A stretch of DNA of 34,650 bases from an uncultured virus (IMG/VR IMGVR_UViG_2684622652_000002). Lineage: Duplodnaviria; Heunggongvirae; Uroviricota; Caudoviricetes. The stretch lies in IMG/VR virus record IMGVR_UViG_2684622652_000002; one strand, given 5' to 3'. The position numbers and the translations under genes are program-made. Under the pieces are notes generated by a model. It searched no databases and had not been told where the DNA came from. It worked only from the letters and a program-made list of their open reading frames with translations. This document shows positions 1,180-26,915 of the stretch, piece by piece; the stretch's first letter is position 1, and each line of letters starts with the position of its first letter.

Positions 1180-1223
1180 AAATTTATTAGAGCAATTATA
1201 CTTAAAAAATCAATTAGAACAAT
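1180..1223 (-). promoter_or_regulatory. Leftward sigma70 promoter overlapped by two tandem C1 operators
   Basis: Operators at 1180-1196 (17/17) and 1207-1223 (14/17). -35 TTGTTC (1217-1222), 16-bp spacer, -10 TATAAT (1195-1200). Confidence 0.85.
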
Positions 1224-5839: not shown

Positions 5840-5869
5840 AGCCTAAAAAACATAATTTATTAGAACAAT
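5840..5869 (-). promoter_or_regulatory. C1 operator and early promoter of the uhr-hrdC-dmt operon
   Basis: Operator at 5853-5869 (15/17). -35 TTGTTC, 17-bp spacer, -10 TAGGCT. Confidence 0.8.
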
Positions 5870-18641: not shown

Positions 18642-19403
18642 TTAAGTCCGCGCGACAGGTTTCAATATGCCCGCATCAAGCAACTTCCTGGTTAGCCACT
18701 GCTGCCCTTTTCCTGTTATATGAGTTGTTAGTGCTATCCGGTAGTTATCGTCGTTGTCGATGACGACCTCACGAACCGTGAAGAACCCCTGCTCGATAAA
18801 ATTTTGCTTCGGTACATTGCGCCGTGACCCGGAAGCGCACAATATTCCATGATCTCTTAACCAGGTGAAAAGAAAGTTTTGCCCCAGGCCTACAACTTTG
18901 GCGTAATTCCCGATCAGTATACCTCCGGCATTGGCTACACGGTCGGCGAAGTCAACTTTTGGCGCGGCGGTCTGTAGCTGCTCTTCGAGTTGCTGCTTTT
19001 GTTCTGCCAGTTCGGCGGCCAGACGTAACGCTTCGGGTAGCGATTGTGGAATTGCCGGGACAGGGGAGGGGGAATGTTTCTGCTGTAGTGCTTCCAGTTT
19101 ATCTATGAGCGATCGGCGCACAGCCTTTGATTCGCGCGCGGCGACACGTAATGCTTGCTTGTAGCTCATTTTGACTACTGTCATCGTAGTATTGTTCAAC
19201 CTTTGCACTACACTTTTTGTGTAGTGCTCTCCATCAAGCTCATCAAGTACCTTTTCTATAAATTTATTGTTTCGAATGTCCGGTTCGCCACACAATTTAC
19301 GTGTCTCATTAACCATCTTCAGCAATTGCTGACTATCAATACCGTCTTGAGGTATCTCAGATGCTATCGGTGCCGGCGGTAACAATTCTATCTGTGAATG
19401 CAT
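18642..19403 (-). CDS. ant2: Antirepressor Ant2 (in-frame internal start)
   Basis: AAAGGAGG RBS before the in-frame ATG at 19403 (MHSQIELL), as in P1/P7. Confidence 0.8.
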   Translation of the reverse strand: MHSQIELLPPAPIASEIPQDGIDSQQLLKMVNETRKLCGEPDIRNNKFIEKVLDELDGEHYTKSVVQRLNNTTMTVVKMSYKQALRVAARESKAVRRSLIDKLEALQQKHSPSPVPAIPQSLPEALRLAAELAEQKQQLEEQLQTAAPKVDFADRVANAGGILIGNYAKVVGLGQNFLFTWLRDHGILCASGSRRNVPKQNFIEQGFFTVREVVIDNDDNYRIALTTHITGKGQQWLTRKLLDAGILKPVART

Positions 19404-19649
19404 TTTTGCCTCCTTTCGTTTCTCCGCTGCCACCTCCGCATAAGGGATGCGGCCCTGCTGGACCAAATATTCACGCACATCAGTTAAGAGAATGCGCTTT
19501 AAAGCATTTTTGTCTTTACGGGTATAAAGGCGTTTTGTAACCATCAGATAGTTGACGACAACGCTGGGAATTTCTTTCGTTGCTATGCAACTGGTGTGTT
19601 GCTCAATAGCTTCGATCATTTCTTCACGGGTAATCAGGGAGGTTTTCAT
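18642..19649 (-). CDS. ant1: Antirepressor Ant1
   Basis: YKQALRVAARESKAVRRSLIDKLE, IPQSLPEALRLAAELAEQK and TGKGQQWLTRKLLDAG (KilA-C/ANT domain). Coupled to the icd stop. Confidence 0.93.
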   Translation of the reverse strand: MKTSLITREEMIEAIEQHTSCIATKEIPSVVVNYLMVTKRLYTRKDKNALKRILLTDVREYLVQQGRIPYAEVAAEKRKEAKMHSQIELLPPAPIASEIPQDGIDSQQLLKMVNETRKLCGEPDIRNNKFIEKVLDELDGEHYTKSVVQRLNNTTMTVVKMSYKQALRVAARESKAVRRSLIDKLEALQQKHSPSPVPAIPQSLPEALRLAAELAEQKQQLEEQLQTAAPKVDFADRVANAGGILIGNYAKVVGLGQNFLFTWLRDHGILCASGSRRNVPKQNFIEQGFFTVREVVIDNDDNYRIALTTHITGKGQQWLTRKLLDAGILKPVART

Positions 19650-19867
19650 CACTGCCCCCCTTGCCAGCCAATAATCTGGGCATTCCAGCAGTTAAAGTAT
19701 TGATGTGCTTCAGTTGAAAATCGGGCAGAGAAAATACAAGGGGCGTCCGGAAGCTGTGAACGAGCTTCTGCTTCAGTCGAAGCTATGACGAGGTGATAGT
19801 TATGTTTTTGGCAGGAATAGAAGCGCCAGATAAACTCCGGGCGTGAGTAGGGATTGGCATTAACCAT
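19649..19867 (-). CDS. icd: Icd cell-division inhibitor
   Basis: 72 aa; MVNANPYSRPEFIWRFY...ASTEAEARSQLP. Its RBS overlaps the C4 target a2. Confidence 0.92.
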   Translation of the reverse strand: MVNANPYSRPEFIWRFYSCQKHNYHLVIASTEAEARSQLPDAPCIFSARFSTEAHQYFNCWNAQIIGWQGGQ

Positions 19868-19918
19868 AGTTACGGCCTCACTAACAGTTTTAACAACCTG
19901 CTCCCCGCTGTCAAACAG

Positions 19919-19995
19919 GGTGGCAGGACGTGACAGGGTTGACAGACTGGCGTTAGTGAAACCAGCAGGCCGAAGCCTCCCCATCACGCCCCACC
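19919..19995 (-). ncRNA. c4: C4 antisense RNA (77 nt)
   Basis: GGUGG...CCACC-closed 77-nt cloverleaf carrying UCACUAAC and CUGUCAA. Complementary targets occur upstream (20063-20069, 20077-20083) and downstream (19878-19885, 19908-19914). Confidence 0.95.
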
Positions 19996-20114
19996 ATAAT
20001 TTGGACGTAACGTGGTTTACGGACACAAAAATACCGCAATAACGGAGGTATGCGGTTGTCCGCACTAACATTCAGGCTGTCAAACCCGGTCGCAGGATTT
20101 ACTACGACGCGGAG

Positions 20115-20143
20115 AATATAAGCCTGAACAATTTAAAAATCAA
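20115..20143 (-). promoter_or_regulatory. Operator-free c4-icd-ant promoter
   Basis: TTGATT-17-TATATT. Confidence 0.75.
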
Positions 20144-20182
20144 CAGCAGCCAGTAAATGTATCATCCACTTTTAAGAAACAC

Positions 20183-20199
20183 AAATTTATTAGAGCAAT
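20183..20199 (-). promoter_or_regulatory. C1 operator of the immI operon (Op51 equivalent)
   Basis: 17/17 match to ATTGCTCTAATAAATTT. Confidence 0.92.
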
Positions 20200-20240
20200 T
20201 TGTGTTAAGTTATAAAGACTTATGCTTGCTGGCGTGGCGT

Positions 20241-20257
20241 TTTTACATTAGAGCAAT
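20241..20257 (-). promoter_or_regulatory. Degenerate C1 operator upstream of the sim-locus genes
   Basis: 12/17, with the core ATTAGAGCAAT exact. Confidence 0.6.
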
Positions 20258-20334
20258 ATGGATGGATACCCACTATTTTTTTACAGTTCATGGGGTTATT
20301 ATTCATCAGATGAATACCTAAAAGGGCTTACATA

Positions 20335-20874
20335 ATGAAAAAATTAGCACTAGCTTTGTGCTTTGTGGCAGGGACTGCTAATGCAGCATCGAGTCTCAAG
20401 CAAATTTGTACCGACTACACAAAATATCTTGGTCATGTGTATGGCTTCGCTGTGAGCGAAGATGAGTCCATGCGTAAACTTCTTCTGGCCGATATGAAGC
20501 GGTTAAATCTCTCCGAAGCTATGGTCCAAAAGGAAATGTATAAAGCCACAACGGACGATGCTGCGAAGATGTATTACGCCAAATTTCTTAACCCTGATCT
20601 CAATGACACGAATCGCGCAGCATTTAATCAAATGATCACATACTGTGAGGCGGGACCAGATATGATGATCCCTAGCTGGCCCGTTTTAGTTGCAAAAGGT
20701 AAAGTTAGAAAAGAAGATGCCGGGAAGTCGATAAATACCTATATCCAGAGCGATGAGTTTATGAATTCACGCGGGATGAGACACCAAAAAGTTGAAGGGA
20801 CACTAGAATCCCGCGCCCGTGGTAATGGTGTAAGCCCCGATCAGCCAATTGAATATTCTTCACCGACTAACTAA
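20335..20874 (+). CDS. Secreted protein of the sim (superinfection exclusion) locus with a Sit-like C-terminal peptide
   Basis: Signal peptide MKKLALALCFVAGTANA|A. Residues 142-166 match Sit residues 939-963 at 17/25. Syntenic with P1 sim. Confidence 0.85.
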   Translation: MKKLALALCFVAGTANAASSLKQICTDYTKYLGHVYGFAVSEDESMRKLLLADMKRLNLSEAMVQKEMYKATTDDAAKMYYAKFLNPDLNDTNRAAFNQMITYCEAGPDMMIPSWPVLVAKGKVRKEDAGKSINTYIQSDEFMNSRGMRHQKVEGTLESRARGNGVSPDQPIEYSSPTN

Positions 20875-20979
20875 TGATGGGCACTAGTTATATATGCTAC
20901 TCAAAGAATGACCCCGGAATAATAGAAATGATATATGAAACCGAGATAATGCAATATTTGTTACAAGGGAAATAATAAA

Positions 20980-21474
20980 ATGAAAATATCTGGATTTTTA
21001 ATTATAACTGGTTTGTTATTTTCCGCTGGAGTTGAAGCGGCGGGGTGGAGTGTTGGCGAAGAAGGCGGCTGGCGTGAAATTTTTACAACGAATAATGAAG
21101 GATATACCATAAATTTCACATGTGACATGGGAGCTAAAGAGGGTACGGAAGATCATGCTGCTGGAAGGGTGCTTTACGTCAGTGGCGGACGTGAAGGGAA
21201 AAAAATTGACGCCACCACAAAATGGTCTATGGAATCTATGCCAAATGTTATCACGTTAAAAATGGGGGACAACAGTTACAATATCGAAAATCAGGCAACT
21301 GCTCCTGCCCGGCGTGAGTGGTATCGTTTTTGGAATGATACAGTAAAATCTGCTTCTAAAACCGTTGACGTTTATGTTGATGGACGGAATGTTACCTCTT
21401 TCCACCTGTCAGGAATTGCTGATATTTATAAAACCGCGCCTCAAGATGGATGCCTAAAAAAAGACACCAACTGA
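20980..21474 (+). CDS. Second secreted sim-locus protein
   Basis: Signal peptide MKISGFLIITGLLFSAGVEA|A, two Cys residues, AT-rich DNA. Confidence 0.8.
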   Translation: MKISGFLIITGLLFSAGVEAAGWSVGEEGGWREIFTTNNEGYTINFTCDMGAKEGTEDHAAGRVLYVSGGREGKKIDATTKWSMESMPNVITLKMGDNSYNIENQATAPARREWYRFWNDTVKSASKTVDVYVDGRNVTSFHLSGIADIYKTAPQDGCLKKDTN

Positions 21475-21491
21475 TAACCTTCCTGCCCGAC

Positions 21492-21510
21492 ATATGACAA
21501 CTCGTAAAAT
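21492..21510 (+). promoter_or_regulatory. Putative late promoter of the tail/baseplate operon
   Basis: ATATGACAA-N4-TAAAAT. Confidence 0.5.
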
Positions 21511-21540
21511 CGGTTGAAGATCCGATTTTACGAGGTTGGC

Positions 21541-22107
21541 ATGACTCCACGACAATTACTCGAAAGCGTTAAAAAGCGTTTTGTACCGCTATTGGCAGAT
21601 GAGCCTGCGTTGCTGGAAACGTTGTTACGCCAGGCGCTAGGGACATATCAGGACCGCGCCGGGCATATCAAACGCCTGCGCATTACTGATACCCGTATCG
21701 CCAGCATTACTCCTCCAAATGACTTTTTAGCTTTAGTTTCGGTAACAGATCACACTGGTGATCTTGTGTATTCAGACGTCTACGATGGTCTGATTGAGTT
21801 GGAAGGGCTATCGAATGCAGTTTATCCATTAACTATTTCCTATCTGGTAAATCTGCGAGAGATAGATCTGGAAGAAGGGGAGGTGCCAGCAGATATTGTT
21901 GGGCTGGTGCAGGACTATCTCGAAGCGTTGATCGCCATTCCCAATACCGACCGACTGCGCCGTGTATCTATTGCTGGCAAACTCGATATGAACAACCTGG
22001 CCGATGAAAATACTCTTCACCAGCGCAAGCTGGACCTGGAAGCGCAGATGAGCGCAACGAGAGCGATTATTCCCGGCTATGTTCTGTTCTCATCCTGGAT
22101 GAAGTGA
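21541..22107 (+). CDS. pmgC: Morphogenesis protein (P1 PmgC position; probable head-tail adaptor)
   Basis: ATG 21541 with GAGG RBS. Synteny. Confidence 0.72.
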
Positions 22108-23684: not shown

Positions 23685-26600
23685 ATGGAAAGAAAAAACG
23701 CCGGGATTGGCGATGTAATTAAAGCGGTAGATGTGGCCAGCGCGAAGGAGCTACAAGAACTGGCCCGCATCCGTAAGTCGGTAGATAGCTTAAAAGGGCA
23801 TGTCGTGGTTCAGGATGAGAAAATCCCCAGAACCGTAGCCGTAAGAGAAAAAAACGCTAAAGAGTCAGTTAGCGAAACCGTCTCTCCTGAAAAAGAAGCT
23901 GCCAATGAGATCGTGGCAGCAATGAAAAAACTTAATCTGGGTGGTGCGCCACGCGATGAATCTCCGGCTGCGGCGAGTAAACCAGATAACTCCGGGATAA
24001 CAACTCCAGTAGGTGAGCGCCGGCAGCAGTCACAAAAAAATAACTTAACACCTGCACAGATGACTGATGCAGCGAACCAGGCCAGGAAGGTTTTTAGCCG
24101 GGCGGCTGGTGGCGGTGAGAACAAATCAAATGCAGTCACTCGCGATGCGCGGGGGCGCTTTAGCGGAAGCAAGGCCGCCAGCGATGAGGTTAAGGCCGAG
24201 CATATCGAGAAAGCGCGGCATTTTAATGAGGAAAAAGAGCAGGAGGAACGTGAGTCCTTTCTGAAAAAGCTCACTAAAGCGGCTGGCGAACTCGAAAACC
24301 CATCTGAAACCCGTGCTGTTGATGCCGTGGGCTACGCCGTGGGCGGCCCATTATGGGCCATTGGCAAAGAGCTGGGCGGTATTACTAAAGAGGTAGGTGG
24401 AACCGTCAACAATGCCAGAAAATCAATGGCAGAAGTTTTTAAAGGTGATGACGACGGAAAGCGCCGGGGTTTTTTTGGCAGACGTAAATCACAAAATAGT
24501 GCCGATGTGGTCCAGCTTAACACCCAGAAGCGAACTGTTCAGGAGTTAGAAGATCAGACCGATGCGATAAAAGAGGGCGATCAGAAAATTATTGATCGCC
24601 TGGATAAAATCGAAGGCAACACAGGTAAGAAGGGCGGGGGGATATTCTCAAAGCTTTTCAATATGTTTGGTAAAGGCGGGAAAGGAGTGGTGACATTACT
24701 TGGCGGCCTGTTGGGTGGGCGCCTGCTGGGTAAAATCATTGGCGGGAAATTAGGTGGTCGTGCGGTAGGTAAGGTCGGCGCTATGGCGCTGGGCGGGCTT
24801 GGGCTGAAGAAAATGGCCCGCTCTTTGTTTGGTGGTGGGGCCGGTTCCGGCGCTGCGCTTGCTGAAGGCGGTGGCGCGCTGGCTGCTAAAGGTGTCGGTC
24901 GTTTAGGATTAAAAGCGCTTGGCAAAGGTATGCTTCGTGCTATTCCTATCGTAGGAACTATTGCTGGTGGCATTTATGATGGTGTCACTGGATGGAACAG
25001 TGCCGATGCTCAGCGAAAAGCATTTGGCCTTTCTGATGGTGAAGATCCGACGACACAGCAAAAAACAGCGTATACGCTGGCAAATATTCTGGATATGGGC
25101 GGATTAATTTCCGGTCTTTCCGGAGCCATCGGCAGCGCTTTAAAATCAATGGGCTTCGACGCTATCGGGGATATGTTGCAGTCCTTTTCAACCGATAGTA
25201 TCGCCCAGGCAATTGATGGCAGTCTGACAAGTGTCGGGAATTATATTTCAAACCTCGGCGACACTATTACATCAACATTTGACAATTATACTGCGAAAGT
25301 AGGAGAAACAGTTTCAGTATGGTTCGGTACTATTAAAACCGAACTTACTAATAAATTAGACTCAGTTGTTAGTTTCTTTACGGTTGAAAACTTAAAAAAA
25401 GTATTTGAAGGTGCAATTAACAGCATCATTGACTTTATCAAACATCCTGTTGATCACATTACTAATGGTGCAAAACAGGCTTATAAAAAAGTCGAAGAAA
25501 AAGTAAGTGGGCTTTGGGATGCTGCCGGAGATGCAGTCGCAGATTTAAAAAACGGAACTATTAAGGCTTTTGAAAGCGCTGGTGAAGCTATTCAAGGGGG
25601 GCGCAAGGCTATAGTTCACGGCACGGAAACCCTACTGACGAAAGCAGTTGATACAGCTAAAGCCGCACCACAAAAGGCCGGGGAAGCAATCAAGTCTGTT
25701 ATTGATTCTGATGTGGTTGAAACGGCTAAATCTGGAGCACAGAAGTTACAATCATCTATTGGGCAAACAGCCGCTTCGTTTACAAATACTGTTCGCTCTG
25801 CCGGAACATCTGATAGTGCATACGATACTGACAAAGCTAGATTCAATGGTGGGCAGGATGCGAAATTACCAAATCTAAATTCCGCTGGGCAGAAATGGTT
25901 AGCAGATAACGCTGATTATTTTTCTAAACTTGAGCAGAAATATAACCTTGAACCTGGTGTACTTTCTGCTGTATCAGCCACAGAGTCAAGTGGTGGACAA
26001 CGGATAGACCATCCGAGAGATAAAAACGGGAATGTTCTTTCTACTGCGTTAGGGCCATTTCAAATTCTTAAAGGCACAAGGAATGATTTAGGGCTTAGCG
26101 ATGCTGACGCTATGGACCCTTCTAAATCAGCCGAAGCAGCTGCGCGTTACCTCAGCATGCTGAAAAAAAGATATAACGGCGATCAAGGAAAAGCTATCGC
26201 CGCTTATCATGCCGGCATGGGGAATATAGATAAAGGTCGATTAGTTGACGGTACAGGAGAATATGTAACACGGGTTCGAGGCTATCAGGAACAAATTAAT
26301 AAAGGTGCTATTTTTGACTCCAAAGTTGATAACTCTAAGCCTGTAGCGTCTCCTTTGCCGGGGCATGGAGTTCCTGCTAATGCAACGATTGATGAGGCCA
26401 CAGGTCTCGCTTTCACACCAGGTGAGAGCCCATTCAAGAAAGGGGGGGTAGTCGATAAGCTTGGTGAAAAAGTTGGAGTTAATGACCTCGTAGAAAAATT
26501 TATGAACGGGCGAGGCATGAGGCAGCAAGTTGTTCAAGGTACGCTGGCAGAACGAGCCTATGGACCTGGGGTTCCTGCGCCTGGCACTGAAGATATGCCA

Positions 26601-26915
26601 ACTTCTGTTTATTCAATGGACATTCAACAACCAACCGCTCGTATTCCTATGGATGGACGCACTATCAGCGATCTTGGTGGTTCAGGTGCTAAACCGACAA
26701 TGCAGTTAGCTGATAATACCGTCACATTGGATAGTGAAACAAAACGGATTTTCGCACAGATGACGACGATTTTGGACAAGATTGAAGGGCATACGAAGGA
26801 TGCGGCCAAGAAAGGGGCAACTATCAAGGTCAGCACTCCGCAACCTGGCGTCACGAAGACTGTTCCTTTGTCAATCGACGATCCGCTGATGAATGAATAC
26901 GCGAGGGTAGATTGA
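23685..26915 (+). CDS. sit: Tape measure / structural lytic transglycosylase Sit
   Basis: 1076 aa, helical and Gly/Ala-rich with hydrophobic segments. SLT motifs ATESSGG, ALGPFQI, AAARYL and AIAAYHAGMGNI. Confidence 0.93.
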   Translation: MERKNAGIGDVIKAVDVASAKELQELARIRKSVDSLKGHVVVQDEKIPRTVAVREKNAKESVSETVSPEKEAANEIVAAMKKLNLGGAPRDESPAAASKPDNSGITTPVGERRQQSQKNNLTPAQMTDAANQARKVFSRAAGGGENKSNAVTRDARGRFSGSKAASDEVKAEHIEKARHFNEEKEQEERESFLKKLTKAAGELENPSETRAVDAVGYAVGGPLWAIGKELGGITKEVGGTVNNARKSMAEVFKGDDDGKRRGFFGRRKSQNSADVVQLNTQKRTVQELEDQTDAIKEGDQKIIDRLDKIEGNTGKKGGGIFSKLFNMFGKGGKGVVTLLGGLLGGRLLGKIIGGKLGGRAVGKVGAMALGGLGLKKMARSLFGGGAGSGAALAEGGGALAAKGVGRLGLKALGKGMLRAIPIVGTIAGGIYDGVTGWNSADAQRKAFGLSDGEDPTTQQKTAYTLANILDMGGLISGLSGAIGSALKSMGFDAIGDMLQSFSTDSIAQAIDGSLTSVGNYISNLGDTITSTFDNYTAKVGETVSVWFGTIKTELTNKLDSVVSFFTVENLKKVFEGAINSIIDFIKHPVDHITNGAKQAYKKVEEKVSGLWDAAGDAVADLKNGTIKAFESAGEAIQGGRKAIVHGTETLLTKAVDTAKAAPQKAGEAIKSVIDSDVVETAKSGAQKLQSSIGQTAASFTNTVRSAGTSDSAYDTDKARFNGGQDAKLPNLNSAGQKWLADNADYFSKLEQKYNLEPGVLSAVSATESSGGQRIDHPRDKNGNVLSTALGPFQILKGTRNDLGLSDADAMDPSKSAEAAARYLSMLKKRYNGDQGKAIAAYHAGMGNIDKGRLVDGTGEYVTRVRGYQEQINKGAIFDSKVDNSKPVASPLPGHGVPANATIDEATGLAFTPGESPFKKGGVVDKLGEKVGVNDLVEKFMNGRGMRQQVVQGTLAERAYGPGVPAPGTEDMPTSVYSMDIQQPTARIPMDGRTISDLGGSGAKPTMQLADNTVTLDSETKRIFAQMTTILDKIEGHTKDAAKKGATIKVSTPQPGVTKTVPLSIDDPLMNEYARVD

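What the first reader, a model, noticed from the sequence alone, without database searches (positions are those of the whole stretch)
20335..20874. Secreted sim-locus protein carries a mimic of the phage's own tape-measure (Sit) peptide: candidate decoy-type superinfection exclusion
Seen: residues 142-166 (nt 20758-20832, FMNSRGMRHQKVEGTLESRARGNGV) align without gaps to Sit residues 939-963 (nt 26499-26573, FMNGRGMRQQVVQGTLAERAYGPGV), 17/25 identical. Of the 15 identical non-Met residues, 11 use different synonymous codons. The match is therefore old and maintained at protein level rather than a recent DNA duplication. I saw no other similarity between the two proteins. The protein has a cleavable signal peptide, and the Sit segment lies just after the transglycosylase domain. 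Known: the P1 sim locus blocks superinfection at the DNA-entry stage, and tape measure proteins are ejected into the envelope. Inference: both proteins dock this peptide on the same partner (a host envelope factor, or a Sit self-assembly site), and the periplasmic copy occupies that site to block incoming sibling phage.
Basis: partly seen in the sequence, partly recalled or inferred. Interest (0 to 1): 0.92.

Follow-up and report, generated by a model that had tools for sequence, protein, structure and literature searches.

The report
Exported prophage protein copies tape-measure motif
A P1-like plasmid prophage exports a small protein whose flexible tail carries an old, selectively kept copy of a short peptide from the phage's own DNA-injection (tape-measure) protein, which suggests but does not prove that it blocks incoming related phages by mimicry.

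Summary
Residues 142-166 of ORF 20335-20874 match Sit residues 939-963 at 17/25 positions without gaps (BLASTP E 9e-8; profile-profile E 1.4e-9). Eleven of the 15 identical non-Met residues use different codons.

The ORF is not the characterised exclusion protein SimC. It is the full-length form of the gene whose 52-residue stump is annotated simA in P1. simB and simC are absent here.

The motif is the best-conserved part of the Sit C-terminal linker; all 54 Sit genes examined have it. Its core N-x-x-G-M-R-x-Q is kept in full-length SimA relatives. In E. coli alleles it shows 11 synonymous against 2 amino-acid variants. In AlphaFold models it lies in low-confidence, probably flexible segments of both proteins.

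Among 1.84 billion representative proteins it was found essentially only in these two families. In a lineage only 38-39% identical, both proteins changed GTL to GSM together.

Function is untested, and the complex predictor was unavailable. A mimicry or decoy block of DNA entry is the best reading, at about 0.4. This scan has already reported the same motif sharing on other genomes.

The parts
20335..20874 (+). Full-length SimA-family gene (179 aa): exported protein with a Sit-like tail motif
   Evidence: ORF. phrog_3933, E 1.1e-90. N-terminus matches P1 SimA, 30/42 identical, E 2e-21. 29 homologues, some named 'simA domain protein' by their sources.
20335..20385 (+). Predicted Sec signal peptide (residues 1-17, ...ANA|ASS)
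   Evidence: Judged by inspection. The pattern is conserved across homologues. pLDDT is below 50 for residues 1-15. No dedicated predictor was run.
20392..20730 (+). Conserved all-helical domain (about residues 20-132) with two invariant Cys (C25, C104)
   Evidence: AF2 pLDDT is 90-97 over residues 21-130. Invariant columns. No fold match: Foldseek PDB 0 hits with E<=1e-3, VIA best Z 4.6, BFVD 0 hits with E<=1e-3.
20758..20832 (+). Sit-like motif in the flexible C-terminal tail (residues 142-166)
   Evidence: pLDDT 56-67 for residues 141-179. Core N144, R149 invariant and G147, M148, Q151 at least 90% conserved in 18 homologues.
23685..26915 (+). sit: tape-measure / injection transglycosylase gene (1076 aa)
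   Evidence: Same gene order as P1 pmgC-tub-pmgB-sit-pmgA-bplA. Pfam SLT at 745-850, E 6.5e-17. Called TMP in passages of PMC12810830 and PMC10695390.
25917..26234 (+). SLT lytic transglycosylase domain of Sit (residues 745-850)
   Evidence: Pfam PF01464. It lies within the only moderately confident stretch of the AF2 model of the last 380 residues.
26499..26573 (+). Original motif in Sit (residues 939-963)
   Evidence: Most conserved stretch of the linker: K242, F243, G248, M249, R250, V253-L258, R261, A262, G266 invariant in 14 Sit C-termini. Present in 54 of 54 Sit genes found. pLDDT 33-46.
20183..20199 (.). C1-operator-like 17-mer between c4 and the SimA-family gene
   Evidence: One mismatch to the annotated P1 Oc4 operator, at the same relative place.
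20980..21474 (+). Second gene of the slot: 164-aa protein with an N-terminal hydrophobic leader, function unknown
   Evidence: phrog_3429. No similarity to SimB, SimC or Sit.

Best explanation
The ORF encodes the intact form of the protein whose 5' stump is called SimA in P1. It is probably exported by the Sec pathway and cleaved after ANA. The mature protein would then be a periplasmic protein of about 160 residues. It has a conserved helical domain with two invariant cysteines, and a flexible C-terminal tail.

The tail carries a short linear motif, F-M-N-x-R-G-M-R-x-Q-x-V-x-G-T-L-x-x-R-A-x-G-x-G. The motif is homologous to the most conserved stretch of the linker that follows the transglycosylase domain in the phage's own tape-measure/injection protein Sit. 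Sit is essential and always has the motif. The exported protein is accessory and is replaced by simB-simC in P1. The exported copy is therefore the derived one, a mimic.

Inferred mechanism: when a related phage ejects Sit into the periplasm, the Sit motif must dock on some partner, which could be a host envelope factor, another Sit chain or another ejected tail protein. The resident exported protein presents the same peptide, occupies or mis-engages that site, and hinders genome entry.

Shown: homology of the motif, its protein-level maintenance, its location in probably flexible segments, its restriction to these two families, and one clear joint substitution.
Inferred: export, periplasmic location, competition for a partner, and exclusion.
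For: - The motif match is significant by three methods.
- It is kept at protein level in every lineage. In 27 distinct within-genome pairs, 4-13 of the 8-16 identical non-Met residues use different codons. The same holds for the window and for lineage G204.
- There is purifying selection on the exported copy. In 38 E. coli-type loci there are 16 DNA versions but only 3 peptides, with 11 synonymous against 2 amino-acid variants. One further locus, L046 (His to Tyr), fell below that script's score threshold.
- The core N-x-x-G-M-R-x-Q is a conserved island after a variable, indel-rich stretch in 18 homologues.
- 54 of 54 Sit genes carry the motif, and it is the most invariant part of the linker.
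- Both copies lie in low-confidence, probably disordered segments.
- The motif is specific. Only 10 of 1.84 billion representatives match at E<=1e-3: 3 Sit-like, 3 SimA-like, 3 fragments and 1 unrelated repeat protein. Only 1 of 201 same-family genomes matches, and that is the one already known to carry a P1-like element. No other match with E<0.7 was found in two whole E. coli genomes.
- In record G204, SimA is 39% and Sit 38% identical to the window's and the two genes lie 19 kb apart. The two motifs are still 17/25 identical, and both read G-S-M where other lineages read G-T-L (one SimA reads G-A-L).
- The gene sits in the slot that holds the sim exclusion genes in P1. Passages of PMC9603915 list this slot as one of eight hypervariable regions of P1-like phage-plasmids.
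Against: - No experiment and no binding prediction exists.
- The protein is unrelated to SimC, so P1's exclusion phenotype gives no homology support.
- The helical domain has no recognisable fold or family, so its role is unknown.
- Co-variation is weak overall. The permutation fraction is 0.029 with non-independent lineages. The window's SimA motif is as close to four foreign Sits (17/25) as to its own, and one E. coli SimA motif (L012) is closer to the window's and the Salmonella-type Sits (17) than to its own (16).
- One subclass of SimA (L008, L010, L048, JK004) keeps only the 8-10 residue core and then continues with an unrelated Cys-containing tail. If the whole 25-mer is needed for mimicry, these would not work.
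- A C1-operator-like site lies just upstream, so expression in the lysogen is uncertain.
- RNA-library contigs of relatives cover parts of the slot but cannot prove transcription.
Confidence: 0.4

Rival explanations
1. Direct anti-Sit inhibitor, working like T4 Spackle. The helical domain binds and blocks the incoming Sit, for example its transglycosylase domain. The tail motif is a tether or pseudo-linker that docks where Sit's own linker docks in cis. The partner would then be Sit itself and not a host factor.
For: It is a small, all-helical protein with a signal peptide and two invariant Cys. By its abstract (PMC7677548, seen in the search listing), Spackle is a periplasmic protein that inhibits the tail lysozyme. 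The motif lies 89 residues downstream of the SLT domain. The joint GTL-to-GSM change is what a homotypic or Sit-contacting interface would predict.
Against: No fold likeness to any solved inhibitor: Foldseek found none at E<=1e-3, and VIA gave a best Z of 4.6, with T6SS immunity proteins Tai4/Rap2 at only Z 3.4-3.8, within noise. The AF2 monomer of the Sit C-terminus does not dock the motif on the SLT domain (pLDDT 33-46). Binding could not be predicted.
Confidence: 0.2
2. Shared handling signal without exclusion. Both proteins carry a recognition peptide for the same periplasmic host chaperone, protease or envelope component. The exported protein would serve the resident phage in some other way, such as envelope protection, lysis timing or sensing of superinfection.
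For: The motif is a conserved island in a probably flexible region in both proteins, as expected for any short docking peptide. A C1-operator-like site upstream would fit expression during lytic growth and not in the lysogen. From memory, not from a call: phage HK97 needs the periplasmic chaperone FkpA together with its tape measure for DNA entry.
Against: The motif is absent from host chromosomes and from other prophage tape measures in the 201 same-family genomes searched and in 1.84 billion representatives. A general host-handling signal would be expected to be more widespread. The gene occupies the slot used by exclusion genes in P1.
Confidence: 0.15
3. Evolutionary relic. A piece of sit was once recombined into the 3' end of the neighbouring gene and has no function there.
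For: The genes lie 3-6 kb apart in most P1-like genomes. The sim slot is a recombination hot spot (passages of PMC9603915). The tail after the core is replaced in several sublineages.
Against: 11 synonymous against 2 amino-acid variants within the motif. The core is conserved across lineages whose helical domain is only 39% identical. Most synonymous sites differ between the two copies, so it is old and yet still 64-68% identical at protein level. The joint GTL-to-GSM change occurs in a genome where the genes are 19 kb apart.
Confidence: 0.05

Closest known systems
P1 simA (P1_gp043, 52 aa, 'putative superimmunity accessory function') and the simA-simB-simC slot
   Same: Same position between the C1 operator/c4 and pmgC. 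The N-terminal 42 residues are 71% identical. Same PHROG/'simA domain protein' family.
   Different: P1's gene is a stump. DNA homology between P1 and a full-length E. coli relative breaks at about codon 55 and resumes before pmgC, with simB-simC in between. So P1 SimA lacks most of the helical domain and the motif. The window has no simB or simC.
P1 Sim (SimC), the characterised superinfection-exclusion protein
   Same: Same locus. Both have an N-terminal signal-like leader. Sim is said to prevent DNA injection by superinfecting phage (passage of PMC8546580 citing Devlin 1982 and Kliem & Dreiseikelmann 1989). simC is named as the exclusion gene (passage of PMC2409434 citing Maillou & Dreiseikelmann 1990).
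   Different: No sequence similarity (E 12) and a different PHROG. SimC has no Sit-like segment (best E 1.1).
T4 Spackle (gp61.3)
   Same: A periplasmic phage protein that acts on a tail-borne cell-wall enzyme of the incoming phage (abstract of PMC7677548 in the listing).
   Different: Spackle binds the gp5 lysozyme domain as a folded inhibitor. No mimicry of a tail-protein peptide is described there. No fold match to the SimA model was found. T4 is virulent and Spackle is an early gene.
Ltp of Streptococcus phage TP-J34
   Same: A prophage-encoded, surface-exposed exclusion protein whose target is the tape measure protein of the superinfecting phage (passages of PMC3952083 citing Bebeacua 2013).
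   Different: Ltp is a lipoprotein whose repeat domains bind the TMP C-terminus by charge. Here there is no lipobox, and the link to the TMP is a shared peptide, not a binding domain.
HK97 gp15 (recalled, not from a call)
   Same: A prophage protein that blocks DNA entry, with specificity determined by the tape measure protein.
   Different: As I recall it, gp15 is an inner-membrane protein, and no mimicry of the TMP is described.

Membership tests
SimA family (phrog_3933, 'simA domain protein') | Sequence homology to P1 SimA and to the family profile | tested here: met
   30/42 identical to P1 SimA, E 2e-21. phrog_3933 E 1.1e-90 over residues 1-169. 29 homologues.
SimA family (phrog_3933, 'simA domain protein') | Position in the sim slot between the immI operator/c4 and pmgC | tested here: met
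   Gene order compared with the P1 annotation. Operator-like site at 20183-20199. Exceptions exist: in G204 and in JK004 the gene sits elsewhere.
P1 Sim (SimC) exclusion protein | Sequence homology to SimC | tested here: not met
   BLASTP best E 12. Different PHROGs: 3933 against 14355.
P1 Sim (SimC) exclusion protein | Blocks entry of P1 DNA while adsorption is normal | not testable with these tools
   Needs plating and DNA-entry assays.
Spackle-type periplasmic inhibitors of tail cell-wall enzymes | Exported to the periplasm | tested here: inconclusive
   A signal-peptide-like N-terminus seen by eye and conserved, plus two invariant Cys. No predictor or experiment.
Spackle-type periplasmic inhibitors of tail cell-wall enzymes | Fold likeness to Spackle | tested here: inconclusive
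   Not among the listed Foldseek or VIA matches. Best Z is 4.6 to unrelated helical proteins.
Spackle-type periplasmic inhibitors of tail cell-wall enzymes | Binds and inhibits the tail-borne muralytic domain | not testable with these tools
Ltp-type exclusion lipoproteins | Lipobox with Cys at +1 of the mature protein | tested here: not met
   The leader ends ...GTANA|ASS. The one Cys of the leader (residue 9) is not in a lipobox and is absent from many homologues.
Short linear motif shared by mimic and model | Motif lies in a flexible or disordered segment in both proteins | tested here: met
   pLDDT 56-67 in SimA and 33-46 in Sit. Low pLDDT is a proxy for disorder, not a measurement.
Short linear motif shared by mimic and model | Conserved island under purifying selection | tested here: met
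Short linear motif shared by mimic and model | Both copies bind the same partner | not testable with these tools
   The partner is unknown and no complex prediction was available.

The most novel reading that the evidence does not exclude
A temperate phage protects its host cell with a periplasmic decoy that displays a copy of the docking peptide of its own tape-measure/injection protein. The decoy competitively blocks a so far unknown step of genome delivery. If so, the 25-residue peptide marks the site through which Sit engages its envelope or self-assembly partner, and so gives a handle on how P1-type myophages pass DNA across the periplasm and inner membrane.
Probability: 0.35. Interest if true: 0.85.

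Novelty: new variant of a known kind. Interest (0 to 1): 0.6.

Why it matters
Exclusion proteins that act on the incoming tail are known. Spackle acts on the gp5 lysozyme and Ltp on a tape measure. An exclusion factor that works by displaying a copy of the injected protein's own peptide is not described in the papers I could search. Four full-text searches found none that link SimA and Sit.

How P1 moves its DNA across the envelope is open. Sit could not be resolved in the 2026 cryo-EM study of P1 (passages of PMC12810830). A short, specific and co-varying peptide shared by Sit and an exported accessory protein gives a concrete, cheap experimental entry point through peptide pull-downs, motif deletions and escape mutants.

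It also reinterprets P1 simA as the remnant of a larger gene that is intact in many relatives. Matches at E<=1e-20 occur in 126 plasmid records, 124 of which cover at least 80% of the protein.

Tried and rejected
- Fold searches of the SimA model: PDB Foldseek 0 hits at E<=1e-3, VIA-align wide best Z 4.6, BFVD 0 hits at E<=1e-3. No usable fold assignment came out. The weak Tai4/Rap2 rows (Z 3.4-3.8) are within noise.
- Family scans: Pfam, NCBIfam and PADLOC gave nothing for the ORF. The precomputed PF14566 tag on some homologues was not reproduced for this protein.
- PDB sequence searches with Sit and with the SimA alignment: 0 hits.
- ESM Atlas: only its own or near clusters, no named family.
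- Own assembly: not held, so the host chromosome of this window could not be searched. Two E. coli genomes and 201 same-family genomes were used instead.
- Mimicry of a host protein: no host match to the motif in those genomes. Rejected for those searched.
- SimC, or the second ORF of the slot, as further Sit mimics: no similarity.
- Pro/Arg at motif position 5 in SimA against Sit copy 2. Of 32 Pro-type SimA, 29 sit with a Pro-type copy 2. Of 19 loci without full SimA, 13 do. Fisher p = 0.06 with non-independent loci. Too weak to use.
- Cognate Sit of the SimA variants with G-S-L-M (P0011, P0014): a search with P0011 did not find its genome in the plasmid or viral collections; P0014 was not searched.
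- RNA evidence: contigs from RNA libraries of 2 studies, 90-98% alike, cover parts of 20368-20717, 20656-20992 and 21033-21542. Contigs cannot show transcription, strand or level. Uncovered parts say nothing.
The P1 genome paper (PMC523184) is not held.
- The sigma-70 scan found no convincing + strand promoter directly upstream of the ORF (4 sites found against 4.3 expected).

Full report
**What is in the window.** The region is part of a P1-like phage-plasmid.
- On the minus strand lie an antirepressor with a KilAC/ANT domain (18642-19652; Pfam E 6e-29) and the icd/c4 immunity region. That region is the only part of 19600-21600 with DNA similarity to P1 (window 19712-20208, 85%).
- On the plus strand follow the ORF in question (20335-20874, 179 aa) and a second ORF with an N-terminal hydrophobic leader (20980-21474).
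- Then come homologues of pmgC, tub, pmgB, sit (23685-26915, 1076 aa, SLT domain 745-850), pmgA and bplA.
- This is the order of P1, where simA-simB-simC occupy the place of the two leader-bearing ORFs.
- A 17-mer with one mismatch to the annotated P1 operator Oc4 lies at 20183-20199.
- The nearest public relatives of both proteins are labelled Salmonella enterica by their sources.

**The observation.**
BLASTP finds residues 140-166 against Sit 937-963, 17/27 identical, ungapped, E 9e-8, and nothing else below E 0.28.
- Of the 25 residues quoted, 17 are identical. Of the 15 identical non-Met residues, 11 use different codons, and 48/75 bases are identical.
- Profile against profile, the two families match only here (35 columns, probability 96.4%, E 1.4e-9).
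- The ORF has a secondary hit to the Sit PHROG at the corresponding profile positions (E 2.9e-6).

**Identity of the ORF.**
- It is not SimC (best E 12; different PHROGs).
- Its first 42 residues are 71% identical to residues 10-51 of P1 SimA, which is only 52 residues long.
- tblastn of the ORF against phage records matches P1 only over residues 1-48. Three records carry at least 80% of it: two entries for one E. coli phage, and Cronobacter phage JK004.
- DNA comparison of P1 with a full-length E. coli relative (L022) shows that homology breaks inside simA at about codon 55 and resumes just before pmgC. The simB-simC cassette lies in between in P1.
- P1 simA is therefore the stump of this gene.
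- The full-length gene is common. There are 29 clusters in the protein search. There are 126 plasmid records at E<=1e-20: 113 Escherichia, 10 Salmonella and 3 Klebsiella, with 124 covering at least 80%. Of the 69 viral-contig loci, 45 match the query out to residue 151 or beyond and 24 match only the stump, residues 1-48.
- simC is the gene named as the P1 exclusion gene (passage of PMC2409434). Sim is said to prevent DNA injection by superinfecting phage (passage of PMC8546580). I saw the primary papers (Devlin 1982; Kliem & Dreiseikelmann 1989; Maillou & Dreiseikelmann 1990) only as citations. Neither simB nor simC is present here.

**Anatomy of the protein.**
- The N-terminus (MKKLALALCFVAGTANA|ASS) looks like a Sec signal peptide with an Ala-X-Ala site and no lipobox. 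This is by inspection only.
- With an 18-sequence alignment, AlphaFold2 gives a confident all-helical domain (pLDDT 90-97 for residues 21-130). The tail is of low confidence (56-67 for residues 141-179).
- Two cysteines (C25, C104) are invariant, which would fit a periplasmic disulfide. That is inference.
- No solved or predicted viral structure resembles the domain, and no Pfam, NCBIfam or PADLOC family matches.

**The motif in Sit.**
- In 54 of 54 Sit genes recovered from the fetched loci, the motif is present.
- In an alignment of 14 diverse C-termini it is the most invariant part of the linker between the SLT domain and the conserved C-terminal block: K-F-x-x-x-x-G-M-R-x-x-V-V-Q-G-T-L-x-x-R-A-x-G.
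- This holds although two different SLT domain types are exchanged among these genes.
- P1-type Sits have an insertion with a second, shorter copy, K-L-[IR]-N-[AS]-[RP]-G-M-R.
- The AF2 model of the last 380 residues is confident only for the SLT core. The motif has pLDDT 33-46.
- The 2026 cryo-EM work on P1 could not resolve Sit (passages of PMC12810830).

**The motif in the SimA family.**
- The core N-x-x-G-M-R-x-Q is invariant or nearly so in 18 full-length homologues (N144 and R149 invariant; G147, M148, Q151 at least 90%). It follows a variable stretch with indels.
- What follows the core defines two classes.
- Class one continues x-V-x-G-T-L-x-x-R-A-x-G-x-G as in Sit. It includes the window, the common E. 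coli 163- and 220-residue forms, L011 and G204.
- Class two (L008, L010, L048, Cronobacter phage JK004, Klebsiella forms) continues P-S-... into an unrelated Cys-containing tail.
- In the E. coli form the similarity to Sit extends to 23/47 residues (E 8e-9).

**Age and selection.**
- In 27 distinct within-genome pairs, the two copies share 9-17 of 25 residues. Of the 8-16 identical non-Met residues, 4-13 use different codons. Recent gene conversion therefore does not explain the likeness.
- Among 38 E. coli-type loci the SimA motif has 16 DNA versions but only 3 peptide versions. That is 11 extra synonymous codon variants against 2 amino-acid variants, both at positions that also vary between lineages.
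- One locus with a His-to-Tyr change (L046) fell below that script's threshold and is not in the count.

**Specificity.**
- A 35-position profile of the motif (10 rows: 4 from SimA-family proteins, 6 from Sit) was run over 1.84 billion representative proteins. It found 10 proteins at E<=1e-3: three Sit-like, three SimA-like, three short fragments of one or the other, and one unrelated repeat protein matching only the 'LEERxRGxG' part.
- In six-frame searches it hit only Sit (both copies) and SimA in two E. coli genomes and one viral record. The next best match had E 0.77.
- It hit 1 of 201 genomes sampled from the same family, namely the one already known to carry a P1-like element.
- So it is not a common host or tape-measure motif in what was searched.

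**Co-variation.**
- The representative search revealed a deep lineage, the 94-kb viral record G204. There SimA is 39% and Sit 38% identical to the window's, and the two genes lie 19 kb apart, not 3-6 kb.
- Their motifs are again 17/25 identical, with 11 of 15 identical residues encoded differently.
- Both read N-A-P-G-M-R-H-Q and G-S-M-A where other lineages read G-T-L (G-A-L in one SimA).
- This joint double change is the best single sign that the two copies are constrained together.
- Over eight lineages the sum of within-genome identities (102) exceeds the mean of all re-pairings (95.0). A fraction of 0.029 of permutations reach the observed sum.
- The lineages are related and several rows tie. 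For example, the window's SimA scores 17 with its own Sit and with four others. The overall signal is modest.
- The Pro/Arg state at motif position 5 is not convincingly matched between SimA and Sit copy 2 (p = 0.06).

**Expression.**
- RNA-library contigs from two studies, belonging to relatives 90-98% alike, cover parts of the SimA ORF and the second ORF. Such contigs cannot prove transcription.
- The operator-like site upstream leaves open whether the gene is on in the lysogen or only after C1 is lifted.

**Interpretation.**
- Sit is essential (CRISPRi table rows and passages in PMC10695390) and always carries the motif.
- SimA is dispensable, is replaced in P1, and lies in a hypervariable slot (passages of PMC9603915).
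- Closely related D6-like Salmonella prophages differ both near the sim genes and in sit (passage of PMC6799933).
- Hence the exported copy is the derived one. A probably flexible, conserved, family-specific peptide shared between an ejected tail protein and an exported accessory protein is most simply explained by both engaging the same site.
- Competition at that site would hinder genome entry of related phages. I put this at about 0.4.
- A direct anti-Sit inhibitor (0.2), a shared host-handling signal with another purpose (0.15) and a functionless relic (0.05) remain. The rest is unassigned.
- No binding or exclusion has been tested, and the complex predictor was unavailable.

**Relation to earlier notes of this scan.** After my own analysis, look-ups showed that the same motif sharing had been reported on other genomes, with the same unproven mimicry reading. 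As far as those short notes show, new here are the deep G204 lineage with the joint GTL-to-GSM change, the library-wide specificity test, and the synonymous/non-synonymous count.

**Literature limits.**
- For every paper I saw only passages returned by term searches, or search listings. No supplement was opened.
- The P1 genome paper is not held.
- Four full-text searches returned no paper linking SimA and Sit. This covers only the held library.

Noticed in passing
L001:9556-9714 (P1 simA) against window 20335-20874: P1's annotated simA (52 aa) is the 5' stump of a 163-246-aa gene that is intact in many P1-like phage-plasmids. The simB-simC cassette replaces the rest and the next gene.
   Followed up: yes
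window 20980-21474 (+): Second ORF of the sim slot: 164 aa, N-terminal hydrophobic leader, phrog_3429, unknown function, unrelated to SimB, SimC or Sit. RNA-library contigs of relatives from one study cover it.
   Followed up: partly
window 1180-1196, 5853-5869, 20183-20199: 17-mers with 1, 3 and 1 mismatches to the annotated P1 C1 operator Oc4. They are candidate C1 operators of this phage. A weaker site (4 mismatches) lies at 1207-1223.
   Followed up: no
window 25773-26912 and alignment A3: sit is mosaic. The window's SLT domain groups with that of some E. coli P1-like Sits (L011, L013; 71% identity over the last 380 aa). Its linker and C-terminus resemble the Salmonella type (L008, L010). 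P1-type Sits carry an insertion of about 50 residues with a second short copy of the motif.
   Followed up: partly
L083:10001-11452 (record G204): In the divergent lineage the SimA-like gene is followed by a 123-aa ORF with a signal-like leader and a 161-aa ORF with several hydrophobic segments. It lies 19 kb from sit and not next to the tail genes.
   Followed up: partly
L086:7501-8070 (Cronobacter phage JK004): Here the SimA-like gene directly follows a 169-aa gene at the place of P1 bplB. The c4/icd/ant region is not at this place (all genes there are annotated 'hypothetical protein', the bplB reading is by position only).
   Followed up: no
alignment A1, rows P0027, P0028, P0032-P0034: Several database SimA homologues look frameshifted within or just before the motif. 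They are either sequencing errors or decaying copies.
   Followed up: no
protein P0160 (376 aa): An unrelated tandem-repeat protein matched the second half of the motif profile six times ('MLEERTRGHGV' repeats). I judge it a chance or low-complexity match.
   Followed up: no
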